A DNA stretch of 64,000 nucleotides from Candidatus Gygaella obscura (GCA_030765485.1 JAVCCR010000002.1:12288-76287); one strand, 5' to 3'. Shown: positions 43,291-64,000, numbered from the stretch's first letter. Made by a program: numbers and translations. The notes: generated by a model from the letters alone, not told the origin.

Positions 43291-43295
43291 TACAC

Positions 43296-46111: not shown

Positions 46112-46132
46112 AAATAGTTTCACAATATTAAT

Positions 46133-46972: not shown

Positions 46973-47103
46973 ATTTTTTAAAAAATTCACCCCATAACAC
47001 ACTTGAGCCTACTATCACAACCTCCAATTTTTGTTTTAATTACATATTTGTCTCCAGATAGGATTGACCTTAAAATTAATCTTAAAGAAATATAAAAAAT
47101 TAC

Positions 47104-47142
47104 TTGACAAGTGTAAATGATATGTTATAGTTAACTTGTCAA
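47104..47142 (+). promoter_or_regulatory. Sigma70-type promoter (TTGACA-16 nt-TATAGT) framed by a perfect 9-bp inverted repeat TTGACAAGT...ACTTGTCAA (putative operator) upstream of the HTH-glnA gene
   Basis: TTGACA 47104-09, TATAGT 47126-31. Inverted-repeat arms 47104-12 and 47134-42, centres 30 bp apart. Strong SD AAAGGAGGAG at 47166-75, ATG at 47179. Confidence 0.65.
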
Positions 47143-47178
47143 TCGTAAAGTAACATAACAATCGTCAAAGGAGGAGAC

Positions 47179-49737: not shown

Positions 49738-49758
49738 AAATTTTTCTTGGTTGATTCA

Positions 49759-50247: not shown

Positions 50248-50261
50248 GACCTGATCCTTTT

Positions 50262-51271: not shown

Positions 51272-51348
51272 AAATATCCTTAGGTCGTAAGCTCTGCGAT
51301 TTTCTTCTGTATAAGATTATTGTATTTTTGCTCTTCTTCTCAAACCTC

Positions 51349-51741
51349 CTAGAAATTTAATTCATAGAAAGCGTCCCAAAGCCCGTGGATATTGCAATAA
51401 CTGTAGACTAAGATTGTCCCTGGATTATCTGTCTTAAAACTTAGCTTTACAATAGGTATAGTATAAACCCCGCCTGTATTAGGACCCTTAGTGGAGGCCC
51501 CATGAGAAGAAAATTCAACTCTTGAAATCAAAGTAGGATTTTTTTCTCCTCTGGGCAAAAAATATGCTTCAATATAAGCTATATGATGCTCTGTTGTATT
51601 AGGATGTACAATTTCTTTACCGACGCTAATACTAAACTTAATATTCTCTGATTTTCTTGGTTGACCATTAATTTCAATTACCGGAACATGCTTTTCTAAT
51701 TTCCAATCAGCGCTGTTAAATACCTCTTTTATGCTTTTCAT
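51349..51741 (-). CDS. sor: Superoxide reductase (1Fe-SOR / neelaredoxin type)
   Basis: EKHVPVIE, HHIAYIE and CNIHGLW iron ligand motifs. Start MKSIKEVF is preceded by AAAGGAGAG. The ORF-track start is 20 codons too long. Confidence 0.85.
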   Translation of the reverse strand: MKSIKEVFNSADWKLEKHVPVIEINGQPRKSENIKFSISVGKEIVHPNTTEHHIAYIEAYFLPRGEKNPTLISRVEFSSHGASTKGPNTGGVYTIPIVKLSFKTDNPGTILVYSYCNIHGLWDAFYELNF

Positions 51742-51754
51742 AAACTCTCCTTTT

Positions 51755-52465
51755 TCAATAACCAATAAAAACTTCTTTTTTAATATTTTTATTCTGCACA
51801 TTCAACTCTTTTAATATCTTCGACATAGCCTCTGCCATGGCCGGCGGACCAAAAATAAAAAATACCCTCTCCTGAAAATCAGGTATATATTTTTCTATTG
51901 TAGATCTGTCTATCTTTCCCATTAACAAAACATTATTCTTGATAATTTGTTCAGTAATAGTAAGAATTGTCTTTATATTATTTAAACGCCTGCTAAAACC
52001 CTCTAAGGTTCCCTTAAAGGCAATTTCTTCTATACTTCTATTAGAATACAATAATAAACTATCCGTAGAAAGGTTTTTCTCAACAATATACTCAAGTATA
52101 GAAATTACAGGAGTAATACCTATACCTCCTATAAGAAAGCCTATTTTTCTAAACTCCTGTTTAAAAACGCAAGTACCAAAAGGCCCCTGGAAAAAAACTT
52201 CATCATTTTCCTCCAACGACTTTAACTGAGATGAAAACTTACTATTACTTAACCTTTTAGTAACTTCAAGATAATCTTTCGTGGGAGAACAAGAAATTGA
52301 TAGATATTTATTCAGTTCGTTATTTCCGGAATTAACCGAATCAAACATAACCTGTACGAACTGACCTGGCAAAAAGGCAGGCTTATTAATAACAGAAAAA
52401 CTAAAACTTTCTATAGTAGGGGTTTGTTTTATTCTTTTGATCAACTTGGCTTTAAAAGAATTCAT
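51755..52465 (-). CDS. FNR-like FAD/NAD(P)-binding oxidoreductase (PyrK-like ferredoxin-NADP reductase fold, no Fe-S tail)
   Basis: FAD-binding beta-barrel (PGQFVQVMF, KYLSIS) and NAD-binding motif GGIGITP. Stop is 13 nt before the SOR start. Confidence 0.7.
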   Translation of the reverse strand: MNSFKAKLIKRIKQTPTIESFSFSVINKPAFLPGQFVQVMFDSVNSGNNELNKYLSISCSPTKDYLEVTKRLSNSKFSSQLKSLEENDEVFFQGPFGTCVFKQEFRKIGFLIGGIGITPVISILEYIVEKNLSTDSLLLYSNRSIEEIAFKGTLEGFSRRLNNIKTILTITEQIIKNNVLLMGKIDRSTIEKYIPDFQERVFFIFGPPAMAEAMSKILKELNVQNKNIKKEVFIGY

Positions 52466-52468
52466 CTT

Positions 52469-53593
52469 TTAAAAACTTGATTCCAGGGTTTTATTTTCTA
52501 AATCTTCAACTTCTTTCTTTAATTCCTGAGGAAGCCCTAAAACATCAACATCCATAAATCCCCTCACGATTATCGACTGGGCCTGATTTTTAGTAAAACC
52601 CCTGGAACAAAGATATTCTATCTCTTCGTTGTTAATTTTTCCTATTGCTGCTTCATGAGACATATTTACATCTCTATAATCTGATTCCATCTCAGGCACT
52701 GCATGTATCGTTCCTCTTTGCGAAATAATAAGACCCCGACATTCAAGATGAGCCTTTACCTGCGGAGCTTCAGCCTTTAAATGACCTCTAGCAATAACCT
52801 TTCCTCCTAAACTTATTGCTCGAGAAACAACTTCTGCCTGTGTGTTTTTAGCCTTAAAAACCACGCGCGAACCAATATCATGCAATGAATCCGGATGCGA
52901 TAATATCAATGAATTAAAACTTGCTCTGGCATATGCACCTTTTAATACTGCTGTAGGATACATCTTAATATCTTTTACCGGTTTCAATGATATGTAGTTA
53001 GAAATAAACGTGGCATTTTCTTCAACCATAGCAACACTCATCGGCCTTACAGAGATATCTTCTTTCCATGAATGTATCATTGTAAAATTAAGATAAGCTC
53101 CCCGATTTACGAAAAATTCCGAAATGCCCAAATGATGCGCATCAGAAGCAGCCTTCGACGCAGAACATCCCGTAATCAAATAAACTCTGGCTCCCTCTTC
53201 TATAACTATTACATTGTGCACCCTTTGCTTAAAGGACTTCTTCTTTAAAAAAAGACATGCCTGTATAGGCAGATTTAAAACAGTTCCCTTTTTCACCCTA
53301 ATAAAATAACCGCCTTTTGTATCTTTGGGAAAATCTTTTTTCAAATCCTTAAACGCTCTAGTATAGTATTTTTTTGCATCCGGAATTTTCTTTAAAGCTG
53401 TTTCAATATCCATAATATCCAAGCCGTCATACAAGCTATGCATAAACTCTATTTTATTGTCAGACTGCAAAAAGCTTCCTGAGCGCCCCCTTTGGGTAAA
53501 ATCCATCCCTGAAGAAGCAATAGACTTCAAATCCTGCTTTTCTAAGTCCGGCTTAAGAACTTTTTCTGATAAGGCAGTCTTTACATTTTTCAT
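52469..53593 (-). CDS. sufB: Fe-S cluster assembly scaffold SufB/SufD family protein
   Basis: Beta-helix SufBD fold, length about 374 aa. Paired with sufC. Confidence 0.8.
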   Translation of the reverse strand: MKNVKTALSEKVLKPDLEKQDLKSIASSGMDFTQRGRSGSFLQSDNKIEFMHSLYDGLDIMDIETALKKIPDAKKYYTRAFKDLKKDFPKDTKGGYFIRVKKGTVLNLPIQACLFLKKKSFKQRVHNVIVIEEGARVYLITGCSASKAASDAHHLGISEFFVNRGAYLNFTMIHSWKEDISVRPMSVAMVEENATFISNYISLKPVKDIKMYPTAVLKGAYARASFNSLILSHPDSLHDIGSRVVFKAKNTQAEVVSRAISLGGKVIARGHLKAEAPQVKAHLECRGLIISQRGTIHAVPEMESDYRDVNMSHEAAIGKINNEEIEYLCSRGFTKNQAQSIIVRGFMDVDVLGLPQELKKEVEDLENKTLESSF

Positions 53594-54275
53594 AACCTAT
53601 CTCTTTTATCCTTTCAAACATATGTTTGGGATTTCCCACGCACCAAAGCTTACCTTCAATCATAACAGCCCCCTTCTGGGCATTTATATAATCTAAAATA
53701 TAACCGGTGTGAGTTATCATAAGTGCAGACTTTTTCAAACTGGTGATATACTCACCTAACACTTTACCCATAATAGAAATATTCTCTATATCCACCCCTG
53801 ATTCTGGCTCATCAAGACAAAGAAAATTGGAATTCTGTAGTATTATCTGAAACAACTCAGACCTTTTCATTTCTCCTCCGGAAAAACCCTGATTCAGATC
53901 CCTGTCAAGATGTTGCGTAAGAGATAGTTTCTCAGCCAGGTTCTTTATCTTTGATTCATCTTGGGTTAAGAAACGAGCTATCTGATGCAGCTTGACCCCA
54001 GTTATACGTGCTGGATGCTGATAAATGATTCCCAAGCCCAGTTTAGCTCGCTCATCAATACTAAGGTTATTCACCTTTCTGCCTTCAAAAATAATCTCTC
54101 CTTTGGTTATCTTATAACCGCTAAACCCCATTATCGCCCTTAAAAGCGTGGTCTTACCACTTCCATTAGGACCAAACAGCACCATAACCTCATCTTTATC
54201 AATAGAAAGGTTAATATCTTTTATTATTGTCTTTGACTCTACCTCAACTGTAAGATTTCTAATTTCAAAAAACAT
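53553..54275 (-). CDS. sufC: Fe-S cluster assembly ATPase SufC
   Basis: Walker A GPNGSGKTT, signature FSGGEMKRSE, Walker B LCLDEPESG. Confidence 0.88.
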   Translation of the reverse strand: MFFEIRNLTVEVESKTIIKDINLSIDKDEVMVLFGPNGSGKTTLLRAIMGFSGYKITKGEIIFEGRKVNNLSIDERAKLGLGIIYQHPARITGVKLHQIARFLTQDESKIKNLAEKLSLTQHLDRDLNQGFSGGEMKRSELFQIILQNSNFLCLDEPESGVDIENISIMGKVLGEYITSLKKSALMITHTGYILDYINAQKGAVMIEGKLWCVGNPKHMFERIKEIGYEKCKDCLIRKSS

Positions 54276-54287
54276 TTTATTTTTTAA

Positions 54288-54509
54288 TTAAACAGCGATT
54301 ACCTCTTTTACTCCAGGCACTTCTTTCTTAAGTGTCTGCTCAATACCCATCTTTAAAGTCATCTGACTCATAGGACAACTTCCACAGGCACCGGTTAATC
54401 TTACCTTAACTACCCCCTCACTAGTTATCTCAACCAATTCAACGCTTCCCCCGTCTGCCTGAAGCATTGGCTTAATACTGTTTAAAACAGCTTCAACTTT
54501 TTCTTTCAT
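54288..54509 (-). CDS. NifU-like (Nfu-type) Fe-S cluster carrier domain protein
   Basis: [21 protein letters not shown] CxxC motif of the NifU C-terminal domain. 73 aa. Confidence 0.75.
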
Positions 54510-54934
54510 TTCTTTCTCCCTTTTTTCTTATCCTTTAAAAATGAACCTATAGTAACAGTTTCTAATTCCCTTATGACTATTTTTTCAATATGATCAATTT
54601 TCATCTTTAAAGCACAAGTACTTTGGTTTGAACAAAGTTTCTTTCTAAAAAAACATTCGCTTATTTTTAGTCTCCCCTGGAAAATATTGGCTATATCAAT
54701 CAATAATATCTTTTTAGGATCAACTTCTAAACAAAACCCGCCTTCCTTGCCTTTAAAAGATTTAAATATTTTTTTCTTACTTAAAATCTGTAATATTTTC
54801 CTTAAAAAAGCTCTGGGTATATTTGTTCCTTTAAAAAACTTCTCTACAGAAATAATATCCTCTTTGCTTTTTGCTGCAAAAAGAATCGCACCTACTGCAT
54901 AGGCTGTATGTCTTGTGATGAGTTTCATTTTCAA
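54506..54934 (-). CDS. Rrf2-family transcriptional regulator (IscR-like)
   Basis: N-terminal wHTH typical of Rrf2 ([11 protein letters not shown]...ISVEKF) and three Cys (C...C.....C) for a possible Fe-S sensor. Heads the suf-SOR operon. Confidence 0.75.
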
Positions 54935-55111: not shown

Positions 55112-56380
55112 CTATCTCCACACAAACCAGACAAATACAGAAGCAGCCAATGTTGCAGCAATAGTAAAAGGTAATCCTATAGAAACAAACTTCTTAAAAC
55201 TAACGCTATATCCCTCTTTTTTCAATATGCCGCAGGCAACTATATTAGCAGATGCTCCGATAGGAGTAATATTACCACCAAGGCTCGCGCCAATAAGAAG
55301 AGCGAATAAAAATAAGGTCGGATTCATATTTAACTTATCGGAAATTCCTATAGCCACTGGCAACATAGCAGCCAGAAAAGGAACATTATCAATAAAAGCT
55401 GAAAAAATAACGGAAAAAACTATCAATAGCACAAACCCCAGTAATATATTTGTACCGATTATCCCAGAAATCTTTAAAGATATAATATCAATCCAACCGT
55501 TGATCCCAAGGCTTCCTACAAGGATAAAAATTGCTAATAAAAACAAAAGGGTATTCCAGTCTAATCCTTTGATATTTTCTAAAATACCTTTTTTTAAGAA
55601 AAACTTTTTGTACGCTAAACTAACTAAAGCAAAAACCATACACAAAGCGCCCGCCATATAGGAAAACTCTAAGTCAATAAAAGAGGTTAAAGCTAGTAGT
55701 ATAATCAATATAACCAAAATCCCTGTTGGTACCCAGGAATTAACCTTTTCTAAAGGTAAAGAAGAAAATTTTTGCTGGTGAGATTTAAAAACAAAATATA
55801 AAACAACAAAAGAAACCAAAGCACCCAACTCCACTGCAAAGAAAATGCTTGGCTTCCCCTGATAAAAAAAGAAATGAGCAAAATTCATTTTGGCAAATCC
55901 ACCTAAAAGCATACTTGGTGGATCCCCTACTAATGTCGCAGCACCTTGCAGATTGCTTGATATAGCAATTGCAATCATCATCTTAATTGGATTAAAATTA
56001 AGCTTTTTGGCCATAGCTAAAGCTATGGGAGCAATAATCATAACCGTTGCCACATTCTCCAAAAATGCTGACAGAATACCTGTTAAAGCACAAATAAATA
56101 AAATCGCATAACTAATATTTTTAGAGCGATTTACGATTATTTCTGCAAGATATGCGGGAACTCTACTTTCCATAAATATATCAGCAATAAAAAGCATTCC
56201 CACAAAAATACCCAAAACATTCCAATTTACAGAGAAAAAAGCATCTTTTAAAGAAAGACATCCCGTAAACAACAGTATCAAAACTGCAAGCACTGATACA
56301 AAAGTCCTTTTTTTAATAAATAACACTACAAAAAAGTAAGCAGTTACAAAAATAATAATATTTAATAATTTTATATCCAT
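55112..56380 (-). CDS. ArsB/NhaD-superfamily anion/cation permease
   Basis: About 12 TM segments with an internal repeat and GDPPS-like motif, the CitMHS/ArsB/NhaD fold. Last gene of the rSAM-U32-GT operon. Confidence 0.65.
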   Translation of the reverse strand: MDIKLLNIIIFVTAYFFVVLFIKKRTFVSVLAVLILLFTGCLSLKDAFFSVNWNVLGIFVGMLFIADIFMESRVPAYLAEIIVNRSKNISYAILFICALTGILSAFLENVATVMIIAPIALAMAKKLNFNPIKMMIAIAISSNLQGAATLVGDPPSMLLGGFAKMNFAHFFFYQGKPSIFFAVELGALVSFVVLYFVFKSHQQKFSSLPLEKVNSWVPTGILVILIILLALTSFIDLEFSYMAGALCMVFALVSLAYKKFFLKKGILENIKGLDWNTLLFLLAIFILVGSLGINGWIDIISLKISGIIGTNILLGFVLLIVFSVIFSAFIDNVPFLAAMLPVAIGISDKLNMNPTLFLFALLIGASLGGNITPIGASANIVACGILKKEGYSVSFKKFVSIGLPFTIAATLAASVFVWFVWR

Positions 56381-56403
56381 TTTATAAAAGTTGTTCCATA
56401 ACC

Positions 56404-57393
56404 CTAATTAAGATTTTTTTTACAAATAGCCTTTAAAACAGTAACTAAACTTAATAAAACAGAAAAAAACAATGAAACTATAAAAATACGGTTAAATCCC
56501 TTAATAAGCATAGTAGCACTTATACACCAAAATAAAGTTATAGAATAAATTAATAAAAGCACCGTTTTCTTACTGTATCCTTTAGATAAAAGATGCAGGA
56601 ATATATGATCAGGGCTCTTTTTTAACGGATGAATTCTATTTTTTATTCTTGCAAAAACAAGATATGTTGTATCCATAATAGGTACTGCTAAAGCTAAAAT
56701 AGGTATAAACAAAGACACCTTATTATCTAAAGAAGCATAATCCTGTTGAATGCATAAAACTGCAATGACAAACCCCAGAAAGTGACTTCCTGAATTGCCC
56801 ATAAAAATCTTTGCTGACGGAAAATTAAAAAACAAAAAAACTATTAATGAAGGTAAGAGACTCAATAATAAGAATATTGATAGGTAGTCTGATTTTAATA
56901 ACGCTATAATTAATAAAGAAATGCAAATTATAAAACTAACTCCTCCACACAGACCGTCTTCTATGTCTAGAAGATTAAATGCATTGATTATACCGACTAT
57001 CCATATGAATGAAATAGCATAATTTAACCAGGCAGGCAGAAAATAGATTTGAACTTTTTTTGCAAACAAAAGAAATAAAGAAACTATACATACCTGCACA
57101 AATATCCTTGCCCTGAGAGAAAGATCTTTAAAATCATCAATTGTTTCAATAAAAACAATTAAAAAAGCAAAAGATAAAAACCATAAAACCTGAAATGATA
57201 CCAGAAAATTAACCAAAAATAATATAACTATAAAAGATATAAAAAACGACAAAAATATCGCTAAACCTCCAGTAAATGGAATTTTTCTTGCTTTACCAAA
57301 TAAAGCAAATTTATTACCAAATTTTTTAGCGAGATTTAATAAGATTACGCTTAAAATAAGATTAAATAAAATTAAAAATACTAATTTCATCAT
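56404..57393 (-). CDS. Polyprenyl-phosphate N-acetylhexosamine-1-phosphate transferase (MraY/WecA/WbpL family)
   Basis: IDDFKD (DDxxD), NAFNLLDIEDGLCGG, IFMGNSGSHFLG and a C-terminal DHIFLHLL motif. Confidence 0.75.
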   Translation of the reverse strand: MMKLVFLILFNLILSVILLNLAKKFGNKFALFGKARKIPFTGGLAIFLSFFISFIVILFLVNFLVSFQVLWFLSFAFLIVFIETIDDFKDLSLRARIFVQVCIVSLFLLFAKKVQIYFLPAWLNYAISFIWIVGIINAFNLLDIEDGLCGGVSFIICISLLIIALLKSDYLSIFLLLSLLPSLIVFLFFNFPSAKIFMGNSGSHFLGFVIAVLCIQQDYASLDNKVSLFIPILALAVPIMDTTYLVFARIKNRIHPLKKSPDHIFLHLLSKGYSKKTVLLLIYSITLFWCISATMLIKGFNRIFIVSLFFSVLLSLVTVLKAICKKNLN

Positions 57394-57422
57394 AATTTAT
57401 TCTAACACAAGAAGTTATTTAT

Positions 57423-58547
57423 TCAATAAAGAAGACTATAAAAAGCATGTAACTGATTAATCATTCTTTCACGGCTCCAAACCGAAATATCTGTCCCTAA
57501 TCTATACTCTATAACATCTCTCTGCCAATTAGAGTAATGATTCAATATATTCAAACATGCCTCTTTTATGCTTATTGTATCCTTTATGCCTACTATCCTT
57601 CCATTCTTACCATCTTTTATTAATTCTCTGACTGCTCCCGTATCAGTGGTAACAACCGGTAATCCTACAGCTACTGCTTCAATCAAAGAAACGGGTAATC
57701 CTTCCCATAACGAAGTAAGTAATAGCAATGATGCATCTTTATAATATGGCTCGATCTCTTTTTGCCAACCTACCAATTGAATGTTATTATCTAAACCATC
57801 TTTCTTAATATTTTTTTTAATCGCCCTAAACATTGGTCCATTTCCGATAACAATAAATCTAACATCTGAAATTTTACTTATAATTAACCTTGCTACATTT
57901 AAAAAATCTTTCAGCCCCTTTTGTTTTTTAAAGGAAGATACAACTATAATTTTTTTGTTGTCTATAAAGCTCTCTCTTCTAAAGGTTAACGTGGGAGAAA
58001 ATTTATCAATATCAATACCATAATAAATCAATTCCAGCTTATTGATCTTTGTTATACGGCTATCAATAGCGAATTTAAAATCGGCTTTCGATACAACAAC
58101 TATTTTATTTGTAATCTTGGCACTTATAAATTCAATAAACCAATATAACCAATATGAAAAAAAATTCATCAATTTATGAAACGGCCAACCGTGAACTGTA
58201 TAAATAATATTTTTTACTCCTGCAAAATATGCAGCCCAACGACCTAAAACTGATGCCTTAGGAGAATGAACATGAACAATATCAAAACTATGATTTTTCG
58301 TATATCTATATATGTGGACAAAAGCAAGTATATCAAAGAATAAATTTATTTCCCTTCGCAAATAAGGACTTAGCTTTAATGAAATTCCTTTTACTTTTTT
58401 GAACTCCTCAACAAGATAACCTTCAGATCCGGATATCAGATGTATATCGTATAAATCTTTGTTTAAATACTGCAGAATGGATAAAAGTTGCTTCTGCGCT
58501 CCCCCAAGCTCTAGATAAGTAATAATAAACAGGATTTTTTTCTTCAA
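57423..58547 (-). CDS. Glycosyltransferase family 4 (GT-B, retaining)
   Basis: GT4 N-terminus (ELGGAQKQLLSIL) and C-terminal E-x7-E region (SLWEGLPVSLIEAVAVGLPVV). Confidence 0.8.
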   Translation of the reverse strand: MKKKILFIITYLELGGAQKQLLSILQYLNKDLYDIHLISGSEGYLVEEFKKVKGISLKLSPYLRREINLFFDILAFVHIYRYTKNHSFDIVHVHSPKASVLGRWAAYFAGVKNIIYTVHGWPFHKLMNFFSYWLYWFIEFISAKITNKIVVVSKADFKFAIDSRITKINKLELIYYGIDIDKFSPTLTFRRESFIDNKKIIVVSSFKKQKGLKDFLNVARLIISKISDVRFIVIGNGPMFRAIKKNIKKDGLDNNIQLVGWQKEIEPYYKDASLLLLTSLWEGLPVSLIEAVAVGLPVVTTDTGAVRELIKDGKNGRIVGIKDTISIKEACLNILNHYSNWQRDVIEYRLGTDISVWSRERMINQLHAFYSLLY

Positions 58548-58559
58548 AACTTTATTTTC

Positions 58560-59402
58560 TTAAAACGGCAATTCCGGTTGAAAAACTGTTCTATCTGCCG
58601 AGCCTTTGATCAGCTCTGCTTTTAAAGGAATTTTATAGAATGTGGTATTCCCTCTTTTAAATAATGGAAAACCTAAATCATTAGGTTTTAAAATATCATA
58701 ATACCCAAGGCAATCTTTTTTACAAACTCCTATTCTGAATTTTCTTTGGTTTGGGGTATCCATAGGACAAAATCTACCTGTAGAAATATTAACAAACGGA
58801 TAATATAAAGTTTTTTTCAAAGAAATAGAATTCAAATTCACCCCTTGAACCAAATTATTTAATTCTACCCTATCTATTTTAAGCTTCTTTGCCAACCGAA
58901 AAAAATACTCAGTACCAACATATGAAGATTGCATGGCTTTTAAAAATTTTTTGTTTACTTCATGAAAAATAACAACAATCCTTCCATCACTTTTTTTTAT
59001 TGGCAGAATTTTCTGCTTATTAATAAAAAGTTGCATAAATGGGTCTCTTTGCTGCCTTGTTAATAGCCTGCCCAAAGATAAAGTAAACTTACCGGAAAAT
59101 TCTCTATTCAACAAATAAATACTCCCCCAATCATTGACAACTACCTCATATCTTTTTCTTTGTTTTCTTAATAATAAAATGGTGTTACGTAATTTATCTA
59201 TATTTTTTCCTGTAAAAAATGGTGTGATTAAAGTAAACTCTATCCTATTACAACAACAAAAATTAATAATCTTTTTAGTATCTGATAATGATGGAAATAA
59301 ATTTTGACAGAACTCAACCCCCCAATAAATCCTTGAGAACTTATTACGTTTAAAATATTTAAGCTGACTGTAGCTGTTAATCAAAATTGCTTTTTCTGTC
59401 AT
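58560..59402 (-). CDS. Peptidase U32-family protein, short paralogue (UbiV-like?) with Cys cluster
   Basis: TIM-barrel-like U32 N-terminal pattern (RIYWGVEFC...YEVVVNDWG) and a Cx14Cx3C cluster (CPMDTPNQRKFRIGVCKKDC). ATGA overlap with the upstream U32 gene. Confidence 0.55.
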   Translation of the reverse strand: MTEKAILINSYSQLKYFKRNKFSRIYWGVEFCQNLFPSLSDTKKIINFCCCNRIEFTLITPFFTGKNIDKLRNTILLLRKQRKRYEVVVNDWGSIYLLNREFSGKFTLSLGRLLTRQQRDPFMQLFINKQKILPIKKSDGRIVVIFHEVNKKFLKAMQSSYVGTEYFFRLAKKLKIDRVELNNLVQGVNLNSISLKKTLYYPFVNISTGRFCPMDTPNQRKFRIGVCKKDCLGYYDILKPNDLGFPLFKRGNTTFYKIPLKAELIKGSADRTVFQPELPF

Positions 59403-60427
59403 TTCTTCTTTTTAATTAAAGCGCTTGGATAATAGCAATAATCATAAGGTTTGCATCTAAATTTAAACATTCGCTTAAATAATTCTTTGCATCTCTCTAT
59501 ATATTCCTCTTTAGAAAGGCCATTATTTTTTAAGAAAGATAGAGACTCCTTAATAAATCGAGTTGATATAACCTTTTCTTCCATTGGAAGGTTTCTGTCT
59601 AAAATTTTTACATGCGTTACTCCAATATTGTTAAAATCAAACAGCGCACACGCACCACAGCCATAAATTCTTTTTTTATTCCAAAAACTGTACTTACTCT
59701 TTTGCTCTATTTTATTTTTAGTAACTCTCACTTTATTCATTAAAGACCTGCATCCACCTCTTTCTTTATTGGGTAATTTCTGCGATGAAAAAAACATTAC
59801 TTTATTACTTTTGTTTTTAAGGTTAAGCAAATGATTGTCATTTGCGGTTTCTTTACAAAAAGCACAAAACCCATCCACAAAAAAACAAAGATCATTTATT
59901 ATAAATACTTCGTATTCTATATTTTTATCATAACTAATTATTTGTTCTATCTCTTTTATGGTGGTTGCTCTTGGTATTACAACTCTCGTTGCTCCAAATC
60001 CTTTAAAAAAACTACAAGAGTAATGATTAAATACGGTTGCATCTGTACCAACTATAACATCTTTATCTTTAAGAAGTTTTCTGCTTAAAGAAATCAATAC
60101 AGGATCAGCAAAAATTATCCCGTCTGCACCTAAATCTAATATAACCCTAATGATTTCATTTGCTAATTTATACTGCCCTTCCAAATAAAAAAACCCGTTC
60201 ATAGCCACATGCACCTTAGATTTTAATTTATGTGCATCCTTAATAGCTAACTCAAGCTCCTTAAAACTTTGAAAATTACCTGATTGACCACGCTGATTAA
60301 TAGCTAGTGATTTAAAACTCTTTCGCCAAACAGAAGGCTGCACGCCACAAAAAAACTCGTTTGCTCCCGATTCCACTAAAATCTCTACTTCTTCTTTTCT
60401 CGTCAAAGGAGATTTAATTTTTATCAT
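59399..60427 (-). CDS. Peptidase U32-family protein (RlhA/TrhP/UbiU-type putative Fe-S enzyme)
   Basis: EEVEILVESGANEFFCGV...KVHVAMNGFF...LDLGADGIIFADPVLISLSRK...GATRVVIPRATTIKEIEQI aligns to the U32 core. Cys cluster DLCFFVDGFCAFC plus further Cys. Confidence 0.7.
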   Translation of the reverse strand: MIKIKSPLTRKEEVEILVESGANEFFCGVQPSVWRKSFKSLAINQRGQSGNFQSFKELELAIKDAHKLKSKVHVAMNGFFYLEGQYKLANEIIRVILDLGADGIIFADPVLISLSRKLLKDKDVIVGTDATVFNHYSCSFFKGFGATRVVIPRATTIKEIEQIISYDKNIEYEVFIINDLCFFVDGFCAFCKETANDNHLLNLKNKSNKVMFFSSQKLPNKERGGCRSLMNKVRVTKNKIEQKSKYSFWNKKRIYGCGACALFDFNNIGVTHVKILDRNLPMEEKVISTRFIKESLSFLKNNGLSKEEYIERCKELFKRMFKFRCKPYDYCYYPSALIKKKK

Positions 60428-60447
60428 TATCTTATTAAAATTATTAG

Positions 60448-62202
60448 TTAAGCTGGTTTGTTAAAAAGCTGGGCATACTCAGGATTATTATCCAAAAACC
60501 AGCTATGCGTACCATTAAAGATATTGCCATTATCAGATAAAAAGTATACTGAATCCATTTTTTCTACAGTATTTATTCTATGTGAAACAATTATTATAGT
60601 AGAATTAGGAAAATCATGCTTAAGGTTATCGATTATTTTACTTTCCGTATCTGTATCAATTGAGGACATTGCTTCATCAAGAATTATTATTTTTGGTTGC
60701 TTGATTATTGCCCTAGCTATAGCTATCCTCTGCTTTTGTCCCTGTGAAAGCTTACAGGCATTATCCCCAATATTAGTTTCATACCCATCAGGTAAAGAAA
60801 CAATAAATTCATCAACTTCTGCAAGACGAGCAGACAATTTAACCTCTTCTTTTGAAGCATGCGGTTTAGCAAACCTTATATTATTAATAATTGTATCATT
60901 AAACAAAAATGGCTCCTGAAGAGCAATGCCAATATGCTCTCTTAAACATTTAAAATTTAATCTTTTTATATCATAATCGGATACTGAAATACAGCCTGTC
61001 TTTATTTGGAATAATCTCAAAATCAATAATAAAATAGTTGTTTTTCCGCGTCCGGAATATCCAACCAAAGCAATCTTAACACAATCATCAATTACAAAAG
61101 ATAAATCTTTTAAAATCAATTTATCATTATTGTAAGCAAAAGTTACATTATTAAACTCAATTCTGCCGTTTTTTAATAAAACTGATAGCGTACCATAATC
61201 ATCATTAGCTCGATTGTCCTCTTGCAGAATCTTATCAAGCCTTTCACATGAAACTGAGGCAAAAACTGAACTTTGGTAGAGCCCAACGAATGAATAATTC
61301 ATATTAATAAGCTGATTTAAATATATCAATATAGCAGTAAGGCTCCCTAGGGTCATATCGGCATTAAAAACCCTAACTCCTCCATAAAGAATTATAAGAC
61401 CTATTGCAGCACGACTTAATAAAGCAGAAAGAAAATCACAAATAGCCTCTAATCTAAAGGTTGACTTTTTGAGCCGGCAGAATTTAATTAGCTTTCGGAT
61501 TAGAGCATGGCTTTCTTCAAGTTCTTTTGCAAAAGCCTTAATAAGATAAATATTGGAAAAAATAGCGTACATCTTACTTATAATCTGTTCTTGAATTTCA
61601 ATTGTTTTATGCAAGATCTTCCTTAAAATCAATGTAAGAAAATAAGATGGTATGCATGTTAAGGGAATTAGAATAACTGCTAATAACGATAATTTCCAAT
61701 CTAAATAAAAAACAACACATAAAATTAAAATCAATTTTACTACCGATCTTATCATCTGTTGAATAGAATTTATTATGAATCCAGATACGGTCTCAATGTC
61801 ATAAGAAAGCTTATAAATATTTTCTCCTATCGATGAATCCTGGAAGAAAACAAGTTCTAATCTTGTAATTATCTTAATAAACTTTTGCTTTATATCAAAA
61901 TTAACCTTCAACGCAATATTCTTGTTTATAATTGATTCTACGGCTGTTAAAAGAAGTTTAACAAGCAAAATTATTCCAATACCAACAGCCAATATTAACA
62001 ATAAATTAAGATTTCTCTGAGGATATGCCTGATCAATTATCAACTTAGATAAATATGGATTTACAAGACCAAGCAACACAACAATTAAACCTATAAATAT
62101 AGCTAAGCCTTTTATCTTCCAATAAGGCAACATAAATCTTAAAAACTTTTTTAATTTCCCAATGTTTATCAATTTATAATTTATATCTTTGTGATCTAGC
62201 AT
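60448..62202 (-). CDS. Fused TMD-NBD ABC exporter (type I exporter; no N-terminal C39 peptidase domain)
   Basis: Six N-terminal TM helices, then Walker A GYSGRGKTT, signature LSQGQKQRIA, Walker B IILDEAMS. 584 aa. Confidence 0.85.
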   Translation of the reverse strand: MLDHKDINYKLINIGKLKKFLRFMLPYWKIKGLAIFIGLIVVLLGLVNPYLSKLIIDQAYPQRNLNLLLILAVGIGIILLVKLLLTAVESIINKNIALKVNFDIKQKFIKIITRLELVFFQDSSIGENIYKLSYDIETVSGFIINSIQQMIRSVVKLILILCVVFYLDWKLSLLAVILIPLTCIPSYFLTLILRKILHKTIEIQEQIISKMYAIFSNIYLIKAFAKELEESHALIRKLIKFCRLKKSTFRLEAICDFLSALLSRAAIGLIILYGGVRVFNADMTLGSLTAILIYLNQLINMNYSFVGLYQSSVFASVSCERLDKILQEDNRANDDYGTLSVLLKNGRIEFNNVTFAYNNDKLILKDLSFVIDDCVKIALVGYSGRGKTTILLLILRLFQIKTGCISVSDYDIKRLNFKCLREHIGIALQEPFLFNDTIINNIRFAKPHASKEEVKLSARLAEVDEFIVSLPDGYETNIGDNACKLSQGQKQRIAIARAIIKQPKIIILDEAMSSIDTDTESKIIDNLKHDFPNSTIIIVSHRINTVEKMDSVYFLSDNGNIFNGTHSWFLDNNPEYAQLFNKPA

Positions 62203-63251
62203 ACGCCTGTATTATGTTTTCTTTGTTTTACAGCTGCTTTTGATGCAGCTAGTTTACAAATCGGGTCACAAGAAGTAAAACTTTTGTCGTAAAGCCATGA
62301 TCTTGCTGGACACCATTTGCAATAATCCCTCAGATTACATATATCACAATCAAAGGAACCGTTAACTTTCTTGCTTCTTAATAACTTAACAAGCCTATTC
62401 CAACCCTGCTGCAAACTGATTTTTCTAAGATTAAAATTAGGATAATCAATCATTAAACAAAGCTTCAACCTCCCTGAAGGAGAAATAGCCGCCTGGTTAA
62501 TTCCTGACCCGCAATAAAATAAATCTGATACACTCAACCGTTTATTGTTCCTCTTTAACTGAGTGTTATCTTCTTTGATATTGCCAATATCATTTCTACT
62601 ATGCATCCAACTACTATATTCATACGGCTGAAAAGAACCATCAAGTCTCGGAGACAACACCGTATCAAGACGGAATAAAACCTTTAATGATTGTGCAAAT
62701 TTCCTTATTGCAGCCACCTCATGTCTATTGTCTTTTAAAAGACAGGTCTTGAGTCCAAAATTTATATTTTTTTTCTTAAGCATATCTATCGCCTTAAAAA
62801 CTTTCTTTCTTGAACCCTTGCTTGCAGTTACTGCATTAAATACCTTATCACTCATTCCTGGAATAGTAATATCAAGCTTATTAGGAGAAAGCTCCGCCAG
62901 CTCATCCACAATAGCACGATTTAATAAAGAACCGTTTGTATATACTATTACCTGAAACCCCTTTTTCTTAGCAAACCAAAGAATCTTCATTATATCATCT
63001 CGCAAAAAAGGTTCTCCTCCAGTAAAACCAAGATAAAAACAACCTAAATCTTTTAACTGGTCAATTAAGGAAAATATCTTTCTTGTCGATAAATCTTTTT
63101 CTTTTCTTTTGTAATCATCCGGGATATAACAATGTTTACACCTAAAATTACATTTATAGGTCAATTCAAACATCACCCTCAACAATAGATGTTTTTCTTT
63201 AGCTAAATGATGCAGGGCGGATCTAAATTCTGAATAATCCTGATGTTTCAC
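62196..63251 (-). CDS. Radical SAM enzyme with C-terminal SPASM/twitch auxiliary-cluster domain
   Basis: CNFRCKHCY (CxxxCxxC), GGEPFL, and a C-terminal Cys-rich region CGSG...C...CDIC...CKWC. 351 aa. Confidence 0.85.
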   Translation of the reverse strand: MKHQDYSEFRSALHHLAKEKHLLLRVMFELTYKCNFRCKHCYIPDDYKRKEKDLSTRKIFSLIDQLKDLGCFYLGFTGGEPFLRDDIMKILWFAKKKGFQVIVYTNGSLLNRAIVDELAELSPNKLDITIPGMSDKVFNAVTASKGSRKKVFKAIDMLKKKNINFGLKTCLLKDNRHEVAAIRKFAQSLKVLFRLDTVLSPRLDGSFQPYEYSSWMHSRNDIGNIKEDNTQLKRNNKRLSVSDLFYCGSGINQAAISPSGRLKLCLMIDYPNFNLRKISLQQGWNRLVKLLRSKKVNGSFDCDICNLRDYCKWCPARSWLYDKSFTSCDPICKLAASKAAVKQRKHNTGVC

Positions 63252-64000
63252 TTAATTGTCTTTCGTGATTTTAATCTTTTTCTAAGCTTGAGAAAATAAT
63301 CATGTAGTTTTCTAGCAAAATCGCAATAATAAGGAACGCTCGCTTCTTCATTACCAACCTCAAGAAAAGCCCTTGCAGGACAATAATGACAAATTTGTCT
63401 TAAAGAACAATCTCTACATTTTGAATTAGTCTTAAAAACCTGCTTATCTAATTTAACAAACAAGTCTTTTAATGATAACTGAAAATTATGCTCTCTTAAA
63501 TCAACGCTAAATTTATCACTAAACATACAGAACTTAATCTTTCCATACGGATTAAAAAAATAATGCTGCTTCCACAAATTACACTGATAGAGATATTTTC
63601 TTGATTTTGGCAAATCAACAAAACCCTGCAATGCTTTATTTTTAAATTCATTCCGGATATCCGGGTCTGAACGTAATACATCTATGTACTCATTAAAATC
63701 AAGCCTATATTTTGTCGGCGTTAAATCACCATTCAATCTAGGAAGCACTAACGGATCGTATTTAAACCTAAAACCTTTTGAGTGATCCTTCGGCCCAGAT
63801 ATTAACTTATCGCTTAAACGCTTGATCAAATATATCTCATCTTTATTTTGTTTTAGAAGATTAGATTTTAAAACAACAGGCAGGTTCTTCTGGGTAAGCT
63901 TTTTTATTGTTTCTTTTAGTTTTCTAAATGAGTCCTTTACTCCACAAATGCTTTCATATGTATCTGCAGTCGCACCGTTTACAGTAATTTCTATTACCTG
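63248..64000 (-). CDS. Second radical SAM/SPASM enzyme, N-terminus beyond window end (partial)
   Basis: Frame is open from 64000 (…VNGATADTYESICGVKDSFRKLKETIKKL…) through a SPASM-like tail (CNLW...C...CRDC..C..C). The ORF track shows only the part from an internal TTG. ATGA coupling to the downstream rSAM. Confidence 0.75.
   Translation of the reverse strand, partial: QVIEITVNGATADTYESICGVKDSFRKLKETIKKLTQKNLPVVLKSNLLKQNKDEIYLIKRLSDKLISGPKDHSKGFRFKYDPLVLPRLNGDLTPTKYRLDFNEYIDVLRSDPDIRNEFKNKALQGFVDLPKSRKYLYQCNLWKQHYFFNPYGKIKFCMFSDKFSVDLREHNFQLSLKDLFVKLDKQVFKTNSKCRDCSLRQICHYCPARAFLEVGNEEASVPYYCDFARKLHDYFLKLRKRLKSRKTIK

What the first reader, a model, noticed from the sequence alone, without database searches (positions are those of the whole stretch)
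55112..64000. Uncharacterised operon: two tandem radical-SAM/SPASM enzymes + ABC exporter + two U32-family Fe-S proteins + GT4 + WecA/MraY-type transferase + ArsB/NhaD permease
Eight genes are packed head-to-tail with overlapping or near-overlapping start/stop codons (ATGA overlaps at 63248-51 and 59399-402, a 7-nt overlap at 62196-202, gaps of at most 29 nt down to 55112), so they are almost certainly co-transcribed. The combination is not a textbook pathway.
- Radical-SAM/SPASM enzymes usually mature RiPP peptides or protein cofactors. Some instead oxidise sugars, as in the BtrN/anSME-type reactions.
- Peptidase-U32 proteins are now known to be Fe-S-dependent, O2-independent hydroxylases, not proteases (UbiU/UbiV in anaerobic ubiquinone synthesis, RlhA on 23S rRNA, TrhP on tRNA). 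UbiU/UbiV act as a heterodimer, which matches the tandem pair here, each with a Cys cluster.
- A WecA-type initiating transferase plus a GT4 and exporter-type transporters points to a polyprenyl-phosphate-linked glycan or glycolipid.
Two readings fit. (a) An anaerobic pathway making an oxidatively tailored (hydroxylated or dehydrogenated) cell-surface glycoconjugate without O2. (b) A glycosylated, rSAM-crosslinked RiPP whose precursor gene lies just upstream of the window edge. Either would be new biology for the U32 family.
Basis: partly seen in the sequence, partly recalled or inferred. Interest (0 to 1): 0.85.

Follow-up and report, generated by a model that had tools for sequence, protein, structure and literature searches.

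The report
Omnitrophota peptide-maturation operon with U32 pair
The eight genes are the enzyme and export half of a peptide-modification (RiPP-type) gene cassette found across the uncultured phylum Omnitrophota, whose three small hypervariable precursor genes lie just past the window edge, and it carries a pair of U32-type iron-sulfur proteins not linked to peptide modification in any paper my searches found.

Summary
Eight co-directional genes (55112-64000, minus strand) are packed with overlaps or gaps of at most 29 nt and no intergenic terminator-like site. Seven domain calls are confirmed by HMM. The second "U32" has no Pfam hit but has a U32-like fold and a UbiV-type Cys motif.

The organism is Candidatus Gygaella obscura (Omnitrophota, anoxic Ace Lake). 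Identical-protein contigs extend past the window edge. They show three tandem 80-aa genes and an HprK-like ScmC gene directly upstream of the first radical-SAM gene.

The small genes belong to an unannotated family of 946 protein clusters; the named ones listed are all Omnitrophota. Members have a conserved leader (KLNPEQAVLxCxC-aromatic), a hypervariable Gly/Ser/Thr-rich tail of about 54 aa, and a C-terminal Ser in 115 of 120.

The recurrent cassette is PqqD, precursor, rSAM-A, rSAM-B, ScmC, a third rSAM and an ABC exporter. The U32/partner pair sits among these cassette genes in nearly every locus recovered, but only about 10-15% of precursor loci carry it. That pattern fits an optional tailoring module.

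Best reading: a radical-SAM RiPP pathway. The U32 pair probably acts as an O2-independent peptide hydroxylase (inferred). GT4 and WecA probably add a glycan (inferred, weaker).

The parts
63248..64000 (-). rSAM-A: the 3' 250 codons of a 355-aa radical-SAM/SPASM enzyme, cut by the window end. The full gene would span about 63248-64315.
   Evidence: The full protein is on L001 663-1730. It has CX3CX2C at C17/C21/C24 and 7 C-terminal Cys in SPASM-type spacing. Its best NCBIfam matches are AhbD/NirJ2/PqqE/ScmE-type, all below their cut-offs. It is the commonest gene directly downstream of precursor genes (35 of 71 evaluable cases).
62196..63251 (-). rSAM-B: a second radical-SAM/SPASM enzyme (351 aa, GTG start, GTGA overlap with rSAM-A).
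   Evidence: PF04055 E 3e-26. CX3CX2C at C34/C38/C41 plus a SPASM-type Cys set. It follows rSAM-A in the same order in nearly all loci.
60448..62202 (-). ABC exporter (584 aa; fused transmembrane and ATPase domains, no C39 peptidase domain). Probable exporter of the modified peptide.
   Evidence: PF00664 and PF00005. Homologues scoring 144-510 bits recur in cassettes that lack GT4/WecA. This ties the exporter to the peptide rather than to a glycolipid.
59399..60427 (-). U32-family protein (342 aa), UbiU-like subunit. Predicted Fe-S-dependent tailoring enzyme.
58560..59402 (-). U32 partner, 'U32p' (280 aa, ATGA overlap with U32). A divergent U32-like TIM barrel, UbiV-like subunit.
57423..58547 (-). 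GT4 glycosyltransferase (374 aa).
   Evidence: PF00534 and PF13439. The GT4-then-PF00953 pair recurs downstream of the rSAM genes in L005, L010 and L012.
56404..57393 (-). Polyprenyl-phosphate sugar-1-phosphate transferase of the WecA/MraY family (329 aa).
   Evidence: PF00953 E 8e-31. The WecA model TIGR02380 scores 85.9 bits, below its cut-off of 326. It recurs with GT4. A WecA-like ORF lies next to an orphan precursor in L067 and L076.
55112..56380 (-). CitMHS/ArsB-superfamily permease (422 aa). Probably co-transcribed, but not a conserved member of the system.
   Evidence: PF03600 E 2e-55. No homologue appears in any other U32- or precursor-anchored locus.

Best explanation
The window holds the enzyme and export half of a ribosomal-peptide maturation (RiPP-type) cassette that is widespread in Omnitrophota.

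Shown:
- Directly upstream of the window edge lie three tandem 80-aa genes and an HprK-like ScmC gene.
- The small genes belong to a large unannotated family. Members have a fixed leader of about 32 aa, M-x-(R/K)-K-P-K-F-(K/R)-P-x-I-T-R-(V/I)-K-L-N-P-E-Q-A-V-L-x-C-x-C-(Y/F/W/H)-x-x-G. A hypervariable Gly/Ser/Thr/Ala/Tyr-rich region of about 54 aa follows, usually with two more Cys, and the C-terminal residue is Ser.
- Across genomes these genes sit between a PqqD-type leader-binding protein and rSAM-A/rSAM-B.

Inferred mechanism:
1. The leader is bound by a PqqD/RRE protein. None has yet been seen in Gygaella.
2. The two SPASM radical-SAM enzymes install cross-links, most likely Cys-derived thioethers, at the conserved CxC-aromatic motif and the variable Cys.
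3. The ScmC/HprK-like kinase phosphorylates the C-terminal Ser, as PadeK and PsmK do in lasso peptides.
4. The U32/U32p pair is an optional tailoring module. It would work like UbiU-UbiV: a heterodimer of two TIM-barrel Fe-S proteins carrying out O2-independent, probably prephenate-dependent, hydroxylation. Here the substrate would be an aromatic residue of the peptide.
5. GT4 and the WecA-type transferase build a short polyprenyl-PP-linked glycan that ends up on the peptide or on its phosphoserine. In other genomes Wzy_C ligase-like or NTP_transf_5 genes could fill this role.
6. The ABC transporter exports the product.
For: Precursors exist:
- Contigs L001 and L027 carry proteins identical to the window's. 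They show 80-aa ORFs at extrapolated window positions of about 64358-64600, 64680-64922 and 65069-65311, and a ScmC-like gene at about 65295-66095.
- The profile search finds 946 protein clusters; the named ones listed are all Omnitrophota 'hypothetical'.
- In the best 120, Met lies exactly 16 aa before NPEQ in 116. An aromatic residue follows CxC in 117. The C-terminal residue is Ser in 115 and Thr in 4.
- The family has no Pfam or NCBIfam model.

RiPP context, from 79 precursor-anchored metagenome loci:
- rSAM-A is present in 47 loci, PqqD in 34, rSAM-B in 26 and ScmC in 22.
- rSAM-A is the immediate downstream gene in 35 of 71 evaluable cases, and PqqD is the commonest upstream gene.

Kinase:
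- ScmC-like proteins carry a Walker A motif and an LNDD motif.
- They weakly match HprK-related kinase B, ScmC and Hpr_kinase_C.
- The ScmC gene abuts or overlaps a precursor gene in five genomes.
- In paeninodin and pseudomycoidin an HprK-family kinase phosphorylates the C-terminal Ser, and the putative nucleotidyltransferase PsmN is needed to add hexose to the phosphate (PMC6993621).

U32 pair:
- The U32 gene is followed by U32p in 15 of 15 independent loci, with up to 3 pairs per locus. 13 of the 15 also hold rSAM genes.
- Only 2 of 13 long precursor loci, and 8 of 79 overall, carry the pair. This fits an accessory tailoring role rather than a general leader peptidase.
- The UbiU alignment and Cys register hold. 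U32p has a UbiV-like motif and a U32-like fold.
- U32p-like domains occur fused to SAM methyltransferases, which would fit a hydroxylate-then-methylate sequence.
- A distant U32/U32p pair lies in another rSAM/SPASM cluster with a different 34-aa Cys/Trp-rich ORF.
- UbiU-UbiV form an Fe-S heterodimer, and U32 proteins are proposed to be prephenate-dependent hydroxylases (PMC6747719, PMC10990095).
Against: - No chemistry is demonstrated. Every enzymatic step is inferred from family resemblance and gene linkage.
- The U32 protein keeps only the first two canonical Cys positions. The other ligands differ from both CX6CX15CX3/4C and CX6CX16CX38C.
- No direct U32 hydroxylase activity has been shown in vitro for any family member (PMC10990095).
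- No PqqD, S24 peptidase or Wzy_C was found in the Gygaella sequence available. I could not read further upstream than the ScmC gene.
- GT4/WecA accompany only 4 of the 15 U32 loci, and one or two WecA-like ORFs turn up among the precursor loci. Their link to the peptide is therefore weak.
- One U32p-like domain is fused to a glycosyltransferase and a B12-rSAM in archaea. This leaves room for non-peptide substrates.
- The radical-SAM reaction type is unknown. No rSAM protein reaches any NCBIfam equivalog cut-off.
Confidence: 0.6

Rival explanations
1. Composite operon. Only the rSAM-A, rSAM-B, ABC, U32 and U32p genes, with the upstream precursors and ScmC, form the peptide system. GT4, the WecA-type transferase and the permease are ordinary cell-envelope glycan and transport genes that happen to be co-transcribed and do not act on the peptide.
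For: GT4/WecA are absent from 11 of the 15 U32-anchored loci within the recovered sequence. Among the 79 precursor-anchored loci the only link is a WecA-like ORF in L067/L076. The permease occurs in no other locus. In L005 the GT4/WecA pair is followed by Wzm/Wzt-like O-antigen export genes. The WecA family normally primes envelope glycans (established knowledge).
Against: The GT4-then-WecA pair recurs in the same order and strand directly after the rSAM genes in four independent genomes: the window, L005, L010 and L012. A WecA-like ORF lies 190 nt after an orphan precursor in L067/L076. The gaps in the window are only 12 and 29 nt, with no terminator-like site between the genes. Wzy_C ligase-like genes sit inside several cassettes.
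Confidence: 0.3
2. First reader's reading (a). The operon makes an oxidatively tailored polyprenyl-linked cell-surface glycoconjugate without O2. The rSAM and U32 enzymes act on sugars or lipid, and no peptide substrate is involved.
For: WecA-type and GT4 genes and an MsbA-like ABC transporter are present. Some SPASM enzymes act on sugars, such as BtrN (established knowledge). A U32p-like domain is fused to a GT1 and a B12-rSAM in a 1220-aa archaeal protein. L005 has a GT2-rSAM-SPASM fusion.
Against: Precursor genes with a conserved leader lie immediately upstream of rSAM-A here and in most loci. PqqD-type peptide chaperones flank them elsewhere. Most cassettes have rSAM-A/B, ABC and U32 pairs but no GT4/WecA.
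Confidence: 0.07
3. The U32 protein, with or without its partner, is a true peptidase that removes the leader or processes the exported peptide, as the MEROPS name suggests.
For: The window operon has no other recognisable protease, and the ABC transporter lacks a C39 peptidase domain. The family was originally named for collagenase-like activity (established knowledge).
Against: The pair is missing from about 85-90% of precursor cassettes, so it cannot be the general leader peptidase. Many cassettes instead carry a signal-peptidase-I-like S24 protein. The conserved Cys sets and the in-register match to the UbiU Fe-S ligands point to redox chemistry. The characterised U32 members are implicated in hydroxylation, not proteolysis (PMC6747719, PMC10990095).
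Confidence: 0.08
4. The 80-aa products are not secreted natural products. They are small hypervariable cell-surface or host-interaction proteins of these ultra-small, possibly host-dependent bacteria. The cassette would cross-link, phosphorylate or glycosylate them and anchor them at the envelope through the C-terminal Ser. The enzymology is the same as in the main explanation, but the biological role differs.
For: The products are long for RiPP cores (about 54 variable residues) and Gly/Ser/Thr-rich. Several diverged copies occur per genome, and the family has 946 clusters. The C-terminal Ser is near-invariant. Wzy_C ligase-like and WecA-type genes sit in the cassettes, recalling glycosylation of the C-terminal Ser of Pseudomonas aeruginosa 1244 pilin by PilO (my own knowledge, not tested).
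Against: The proteins have no signal peptide or membrane anchor. A dedicated ABC exporter and a PqqD chaperone are typical of RiPP natural products. Nothing here tests localisation.
Confidence: 0.2

Closest known systems
SynChlorMet (SCM) cassette of NCBIfam/TIGRFAMs (ScmC, ScmD, ScmE, ScmF), a bioinformatically defined and functionally uncharacterised rSAM peptide-modification cassette
   Same: The parts list matches: two PqqE-like radical-SAM/SPASM proteins, a PqqD-type protein and a ScmC-family protein. Precomputed Pfam PF27840:ScmC hits appear. ScmC, ScmD, ScmE and ScmF are among the weak NCBIfam matches.
   Different: All scores lie far below the equivalog cut-offs: ScmE 77 against 400, ScmF 70 against 400, ScmC 16-23 against 125, ScmD 33 against 100. 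Here a precursor family is identifiable. There are extra modules (U32/U32p, GT4/WecA, a third rSAM, NTP_transf_5, an S24 peptidase, Wzy_C). The close relatives recovered are all from Omnitrophota.
UbiU-UbiV, the O2-independent, prephenate-dependent hydroxylase of anaerobic ubiquinone synthesis, and the wider U32 family (RlhA, TrhP)
   Same: Two adjacent genes encode a U32 TIM-barrel protein of about 340 aa and a partner of about 280 aa. The larger one aligns with UbiU at 99.1% probability, with CX6C in register. The smaller one has a UbiV-style CXnCX14CX3C motif whose first Cys is far upstream. The host is an anaerobe.
   Different: UbiU model score is 68.5 against a cut-off of 440. The partner is not detectably PF01136. 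The third and fourth Cys positions of the large subunit differ, and it has extra invariant Cys (C27, C257, C260, C331). No UbiT or ubi-gene context is present. The context is a peptide-maturation cassette, so the substrate is presumably a peptide.
Phosphorylated and glycosylated lasso peptides (paeninodin PadeK; pseudomycoidin PsmK/PsmN)
   Same: An HprK-family kinase is encoded next to the precursor. The precursor ends in Ser. PqqD and an ABC exporter are present. Many sister cassettes carry an NTP_transf_5 protein, the type of uncharacterised nucleotidyltransferase PsmN is described as.
   Different: No lasso cyclase (Asn-synthetase-like C protein) and no B-protein protease were found. Radical-SAM/SPASM enzymes take their place. 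The ScmC-like kinase is only weakly similar to HprK models (E 1e-3 to 1e-5, below the cut-offs).
Radical-SAM/SPASM cross-linked RiPPs (sactipeptides, ranthipeptides/SCIFF, PQQ, mycofactocin)
   Same: SPASM-type rSAM enzymes are encoded next to Cys-containing precursors with a conserved leader, a PqqD-type chaperone and an ABC exporter.
   Different: No rSAM protein here reaches any family-specific cut-off. The precursors are longer, with a variable region of about 54 aa, and the conserved CxC-aromatic motif lies at the leader/core border. Two or three rSAM enzymes occur per cassette. The cross-link type is unknown.

Membership tests
Peptidase_U32 (PF01136) | The 342-aa ORF scores above the Pfam gathering threshold | tested here: met
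Peptidase_U32 (PF01136) | The 280-aa partner ORF scores above the Pfam gathering threshold or shows significant profile similarity | tested here: not met
UbiU/UbiV O2-independent hydroxylase | Equivalog-level similarity to UbiU (NF047963) | tested here: not met
   68.5 bits against a cut-off of 440. The N-terminal 190 residues nevertheless align at 99.1% probability.
UbiU/UbiV O2-independent hydroxylase | Four conserved Cys ligands for a 4Fe-4S cluster in each subunit (UbiU CX6CX16CX38C; UbiV CXnCX12CX3C) | tested here: inconclusive
   Large subunit: CX6C is in register with UbiU C169/C176, but the later Cys positions differ (C191, C226, C257, C260). Partner: invariant C32, C212, C227, C231 form CXnCX14CX3C. 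Cluster binding was not measured.
UbiU/UbiV O2-independent hydroxylase | The two subunit genes are adjacent and co-occur | tested here: met
   U32p follows U32 in 15 of 15 independent loci, usually overlapping or abutting it. The P0097 contig shows the same arrangement.
UbiU/UbiV O2-independent hydroxylase | Heterodimer formation and prephenate-dependent hydroxylation | not testable with these tools
   Needs anaerobic co-purification and 18O-shikimate labelling.
Radical SAM / SPASM subfamily | CX3CX2C SAM-cluster motif plus a C-terminal 7-Cys auxiliary-cluster domain | tested here: met
   rSAM-A: C17/C21/C24, and C245...C263, C300/C303/C309/C312, C331. rSAM-B: C34/C38/C41, and C247...C265, C302/C305/C311/C314, C328/C332. 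The spacing is CX2CX5CX2C rather than the canonical CX2CX5CX3C. TIGR04085 scores 25.7 bits against 27 on the truncated rSAM-A.
anSME (anaerobic sulfatase-maturating enzyme) | Best match to anSME models and a sulfatase gene nearby | tested here: not met
   The top NCBIfam hits are NirJ2/AhbD, PqqE, mycofactocin and ScmE-type models. No sulfatase is among the called neighbouring genes.
SynChlorMet (SCM) cassette | ScmC, ScmD, ScmE and ScmF each above their NCBIfam equivalog cut-offs | tested here: not met
   ScmE 76.9 against 400, ScmF 70.3 against 400, ScmC 16-23 against 125, ScmD 33 against 100. Only the architecture and the Pfam ScmC family (PF27840, precomputed) are shared.
RiPP precursor peptide (generic) | A small ORF with a conserved leader and a variable core, encoded next to an RRE/PqqD protein and the modifying enzyme | tested here: met
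   The leader is conserved with 11 invariant positions in the 16-sequence alignment, and the tail is hypervariable. PqqD is the commonest upstream gene and rSAM-A the commonest downstream gene. Translation and modification were not tested.
Lasso peptide (paeninodin type) | Lasso cyclase (Asn-synthetase-like) and a B1/B2 leader protease | tested here: not met
   No such Pfam family appears among the called genes of L005, L006, L021 or the P0097 contig. Only the HprK-like kinase, PqqD, NTP_transf_5, the C-terminal Ser and the ABC exporter are shared.
WecA (UDP-GlcNAc:undecaprenyl-P GlcNAc-1-P transferase) | Equivalog-level match to TIGR02380 | tested here: not met
   85.9 bits against a cut-off of 326. 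The protein does belong to the broader PF00953 family (E 8e-31). Sugar specificity is unknown.

The most novel reading that the evidence does not exclude
The U32/U32p pair would be the first peptide-modifying member of the U32 family: an O2-independent, prephenate-dependent hydroxylase that tailors aromatic residues of radical-SAM-cross-linked peptides in strict anaerobes. The same peptides would carry a C-terminal phosphoserine made by an HprK-like kinase. That phosphoserine would be extended to a phosphoglycan, possibly with the WecA-type enzyme using phosphoserine in place of polyprenyl phosphate. U32p-like proteins form a large family without a Pfam model (2085 clusters at 50% identity). 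The family is shared with DPANN archaea and is sometimes fused to methyltransferases. It would then define a widespread anaerobic hydroxylation toolkit.
Probability: 0.3. Interest if true: 0.9.

Novelty: new variant of a known kind. Interest (0 to 1): 0.68.

Why it matters
**U32 substrates.** Only RNA bases and ubiquinone precursors are known U32 substrates, and most U32 subfamilies have no assigned function (PMC10990095). A dedicated clade embedded in peptide-maturation cassettes gives a soluble, genetically defined candidate substrate. The long-missing in vitro assay for U32 hydroxylases could be built on it. The result would also show how strict anaerobes hydroxylate peptides without O2.

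**Precursor family.** The family has 946 clusters and no Pfam or NCBIfam model. It is hypervariable, multi-copy and ends in Ser. It is a phylum-wide trait of Omnitrophota, uncultured ultra-small bacteria suspected of host dependence. It may underlie competition or host interaction.

**U32p family.** This is a large unmodelled protein family (2085 representatives at 50% identity) shared by Omnitrophota and DPANN archaea.

Tried and rejected
- BLASTP of U32 against U32p found nothing.
- PDB sequence searches with both family profiles found nothing significant.
- hhalign of U32p against U32, UbiV and UbiU gave only weak alignments. They are in register but not significant. I therefore do not file U32p as a U32 member by sequence.
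- The afdb50 Foldseek library was unavailable.
- An exact-match DNA scan of metagenome contigs for sequence upstream of the Gygaella ScmC gene found nothing. I could not read beyond about 2.1 kb past the window edge. The 129,682-bp NCBI contig was never returned by the contig look-ups.
- Literature searches returned no relevant paper: U32 + RiPP + radical SAM, 'NPEQAVL', 'SynChlorMet', Omnitrophota + radical SAM, and SPASM + PqqD + HPr kinase. The paper describing Ca. Gygaella does not mention these genes.
- anSME/sulfatase identity: rejected.
- Lasso peptide: rejected, no cyclase.
- U32 as the general leader peptidase: rejected because the pair is absent from most cassettes.
- Internal promoters or terminators splitting the operon: no support beyond chance.

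Full report
**Observation.**
The region 55112-64000 carries eight ORFs, all on the minus strand:
- a 3' fragment of a radical-SAM gene (63248 to beyond 64000)
- a second radical-SAM gene (62196-63251)
- an ABC exporter (60448-62202)
- a Peptidase_U32 protein (59399-60427)
- a 280-aa ORF (58560-59402)
- a GT4 glycosyltransferase (57423-58547)
- a PF00953 WecA/MraY-family transferase (56404-57393)
- a CitMHS/ArsB-superfamily permease (55112-56380)

The junctions between consecutive genes are overlaps of 4, 7 and 4 nt and gaps of 20, 12, 29 and 23 nt. A 177-nt gap then precedes an Rrf2-NifU-SufC-SufBD operon. The 63248-63251 overlap is GTGA with a GTG start, not ATGA.

Promoter-like sites occur at the chance rate (48 against 47.6). 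All minus-strand terminator-like hits are weak and lie inside genes. Nothing argues against one transcript.

Pfam and NCBIfam confirm seven of the eight domain calls. Both radical-SAM proteins have CX3CX2C and a seven-Cys SPASM-type C-terminus, with CX2CX5CX2C spacing. The 280-aa ORF has no Pfam or NCBIfam match at all.

**Organism.**
The U32 protein is 100% identical to one that NCBI names from Candidatus Gygaella obscura, phylum Omnitrophota. [quoted passage not shown] The genes downstream include desulfoferrodoxin and rubrerythrin, which fits an anaerobe.

**Beyond the window edge.**
Independent assemblies carry proteins identical to the window's. L001 shows the complete 355-aa rSAM-A preceded by two 80-aa ORFs. 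L027 adds a third 80-aa ORF and, overlapping its start, the 3' 266 codons of a gene 39% identical (E 3e-62) to ScmC-family proteins of other Omnitrophota.

Extrapolated to window coordinates:
- rSAM-A starts at about 64315.
- The precursors lie at about 64358-64600, 64680-64922 and 65069-65311.
- The ScmC-like gene lies at about 65295-66095.

A 161-nt unit is repeated three times, and two copies are identical. Each unit holds 75 nt upstream of a small ORF plus its first 86 nt. This explains why six assemblies break exactly there. It also shows that the copies arose by tandem duplication of the ScmC tail plus a precursor.

**The small ORFs are a real, large family.**
Sixteen examples from eight genomes align with 11 invariant positions: P9, L16-L23 (LNPEQAVL), C25 and C27. 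A profile search finds 946 protein clusters, and the named ones listed are all Omnitrophota 'hypothetical protein'. Among the best 120:
- The start Met lies exactly 16 residues before NPEQ in 116.
- The residue after CxC is aromatic in 117 (Y 94, F 9, W 9, H 5).
- Gly follows three residues later in 99.
- The remaining ~54 residues are essentially unalignable. They are rich in Gly, Ser, Thr, Ala and Tyr and poor in Lys and Glu, and usually contain two Cys 11-16 residues apart.
- The last residue is Ser in 115 and Thr in 4; the last two residues are 'SS' in 71.

Neither Pfam nor NCBIfam has a model for the family. The motif appears in no searchable paper.

**Genomic context of the precursors.**
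A scan of metagenome contigs with the leader motif gave 273 confirmed sites, of which 79 loci (427 kb) were kept. My phmmer/hmmsearch map finds these genes in the 79 loci:

| Gene | Loci |
|---|---|
| rSAM-A | 47 |
| PqqD | 34 |
| rSAM-B | 26 |
| ScmC | 22 |
| ABC | 11 |
| S24 peptidase | 10 |
| NTP_transf_5 | 8 |

The gene immediately downstream of a precursor is rSAM-A in 35 of 71 evaluable cases. The commonest upstream gene is PqqD (22 cases).

In the long loci the order is [NTP_transf_5]-PqqD-[S24]-precursor-rSAM-A-rSAM-B-ScmC-third rSAM-ABC-[NTP_transf_5]. This is a textbook RiPP layout: leader-binding chaperone, precursor, modifying enzymes, exporter. The window's order (precursors, rSAM-A, rSAM-B, ABC) is the canonical one.

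**The U32 pair.**
About 107 protein clusters are 41-54% identical to the U32 protein, and every named one listed is from Omnitrophota. A genome scan gave 12 further Omnitrophota loci and one distant Spirochaetota locus.

In all 15 independent loci the U32 gene is followed on the same strand by a homologue of the 280-aa ORF. It usually overlaps or abuts, and the largest separation is about 2.8 kb. Some loci hold two or three pairs. 13 of these 15 loci also contain rSAM genes, and at least 10 contain precursor genes.

The reverse does not hold. Only 2 of 13 distinct long precursor-anchored loci, and 8 of 79 overall, carry U32 or U32p. The pair is therefore an optional add-on to the cassette. That is the pattern expected of a tailoring enzyme, not of a leader peptidase needed by every precursor.

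**Is the partner a U32 protein?**
By sequence this cannot be shown.
- BLASTP finds nothing.
- hhalign against the U32 family gives 6.7% probability, against UbiV 0.14% and against UbiU 2.8%.
- The weak alignments are nonetheless in register. Partner C32 falls on UbiV C39, and the NDWG motif falls on the DG/SDLG strand end.

The partner's four invariant Cys (C32, C212, C227, C231) form CXnCX14CX3C. UbiV's experimentally defined 4Fe-4S ligands form CXnCX12CX3C (PMC6747719).

The large subunit aligns with E. coli UbiU at 99.1% probability, with C181/C188 on UbiU C169/C176. Its remaining conserved Cys (C27, C191, C226, C257, C260, C325, C331) do not follow the UbiU spacing. The loop 182-224 is modelled with low confidence.

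I conclude that this is a UbiU/UbiV-like two-subunit enzyme with divergent cluster sites. Fe-S binding, dimerisation and activity remain untested.

**Wider distribution of the partner family.**
An exhaustive profile search finds 2085 representatives (50% identity clusters) at E no greater than 1e-3, and 575 at E no greater than 1e-30. Of the ten I looked up, the three that carry a source name are Nanoarchaeota or Woesearchaeota.
- Two are fused to SAM methyltransferases. One 1220-aa protein combines B12-rSAM, GT1, U32p and a methyltransferase. Hydroxylase-methyltransferase fusion would echo the hydroxylate-then-O-methylate logic of quinone synthesis. The GT1 fusion warns that some members may act on non-peptide substrates.
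- A distant U32/U32p pair lies in another rSAM/SPASM-rich cluster next to a 34-aa Cys/Trp-rich ORF and an ABC exporter (L110).
- Another pair lies beside a B12-rSAM and an MFS transporter (L109).

**ScmC-like kinase and the C-terminal Ser.**
ScmC-family proteins of these cassettes carry a Walker A motif and an LNDD motif. They weakly match HprK-related kinase B (E 3.5e-5 to 1e-4), ScmC and Hpr_kinase_C, all below the curated cut-offs. Their gene abuts or overlaps a precursor gene in L005, L010, L011, L018 and Gygaella.

In the lasso peptides paeninodin and pseudomycoidin an HprK-family kinase phosphorylates the C-terminal Ser. PsmN, a putative uncharacterised nucleotidyltransferase, is required to add hexose to that phosphate (PMC6993621). 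PF14907 NTP_transf_5 genes recur in the Omnitrophota cassettes.

The near-invariant C-terminal Ser of the Omnitrophota precursors is best explained by the same chemistry. This is an inference.

**GT4 and the WecA-type transferase.**
The pair recurs in the same order directly after the rSAM genes in L005, L010 and L012 as well as in the window. A WecA-like ORF follows an orphan precursor in L067/L076.

Wzy_C ligase-like genes lie inside several cassettes. In L005 Wzm/Wzt-like genes and a GT2-rSAM-SPASM fusion follow. Most cassettes have NTP_transf_5 instead of GT4/WecA.

A role in glycosylating the peptide or its phosphoserine is plausible but weakly supported. The alternative, neighbouring envelope-glycan genes that are merely co-transcribed, keeps substantial probability. 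The permease is found in no other locus and is probably not part of the system.

**Comparison with known systems.**
- The parts list matches the bioinformatically defined SynChlorMet cassette (ScmC, ScmD/PqqD, ScmE, ScmF). All scores lie far below the equivalog cut-offs, so this is an architectural relative, not a member.
- It shares the kinase, PqqD, NTP_transf_5, C-terminal Ser and ABC logic with phosphorylated lasso peptides, but has no lasso cyclase.
- It shares SPASM chemistry with sacti- and ranthipeptides, PQQ and mycofactocin, but matches no family model.
- The U32 pair works like UbiU-UbiV by architecture and fails the equivalog test (68.5 against 440 bits).
- None of the papers I could search links U32 proteins to RiPPs or describes this precursor family.

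**Verdict.**
Reading (b) is largely borne out, because its key prediction (precursors just past the edge) is met. Reading (a) is disfavoured.

This is a new variant of a known kind (radical-SAM RiPP cassette). It has an unannotated, phylum-wide precursor family and a U32-type two-subunit module. If that module hydroxylates peptides, it would be new chemistry for both the RiPP and the U32 fields.

Noticed in passing
L027 710-870, 1099-1259, 1421-1581 (extrapolated window positions about 64515-65386): A 161-nt direct repeat occurs three times, and the first two copies are 100% identical. It covers 75 nt upstream plus the first 86 nt of each precursor gene. The upstream part of copy 1 is the 3' end of the ScmC-like gene, so copies 2 and 3 carry a relic of that gene end. 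This indicates tandem duplication. Six independent assemblies break at this repeat.
   Followed up: partly
window 48793-54934: Directly downstream of the operon lie an Rrf2 regulator, NifU, SufC and SufB/D (Fe-S cluster assembly). Next come an NAD-binding oxidoreductase, desulfoferrodoxin, a PNPOx-like protein, a flavodoxin-like protein, rubrerythrin and lactate/malate dehydrogenase. An Fe-S assembly operon thus sits next to a cluster encoding at least four predicted Fe-S enzymes. This may be coincidence.
   Followed up: no
window 56001-62000: GC content drops to 0.29-0.31 across the cassette, against about 0.35 for the rest of the window. This could reflect membrane-protein composition or horizontal acquisition.
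   Followed up: no
window 41662-48714: This is the only stretch of the window with plus-strand genes. The otherwise strong negative GC skew (-0.2 to -0.3) rises to about 0 here.
   Followed up: no
L005 16293-21005: After GT4/WecA come a 273-aa protein with no Pfam hit, a Wzt-like ABC ATPase with a Wzt_C domain, and a fusion protein of more than 861 aa combining GT2, radical SAM and SPASM domains.
   Followed up: no
P0397, P0479, P0450/P0509 (protein ids): U32p-like domains occur fused to class I SAM methyltransferases. One 1220-aa protein combines B12-rSAM, GT1, U32p and a methyltransferase. Its cluster-mate P0509 (1237 aa) is annotated as a Candidatus Woesearchaeota glycosyltransferase. The named relatives P0362 and P0479 are Nanoarchaeota.
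   Followed up: partly
L110 9980-15267: A distant U32 (9980-10984) and a U32p-like gene (14317-15096) lie in an rSAM/SPASM-rich cluster with a B12-rSAM, an Rce1-like protease and FtsX/ABC genes. A 34-aa ORF, MLDLGVISGSDESDEACWTLCQWAGWNFDHDESC (15163-15267), sits just before an ABC exporter. It is a different candidate RiPP that also uses a U32 pair.
   Followed up: partly
L010 1051-1143 and 2540-2689; L018 9318-9425; L019 8917-9048: These are truncated precursor-like ORFs that keep the leader but stop shortly after the CxC motif. They are possibly decaying copies.
   Followed up: no
L006 2475-11895; L016 8046-18470: Up to three U32/U32p pairs occur per locus, and they fall into two sequence subgroups. 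Partner scores against the window protein are above 180 bits in one subgroup and 108-140 bits in the other. This suggests several distinct tailoring specificities.
   Followed up: no
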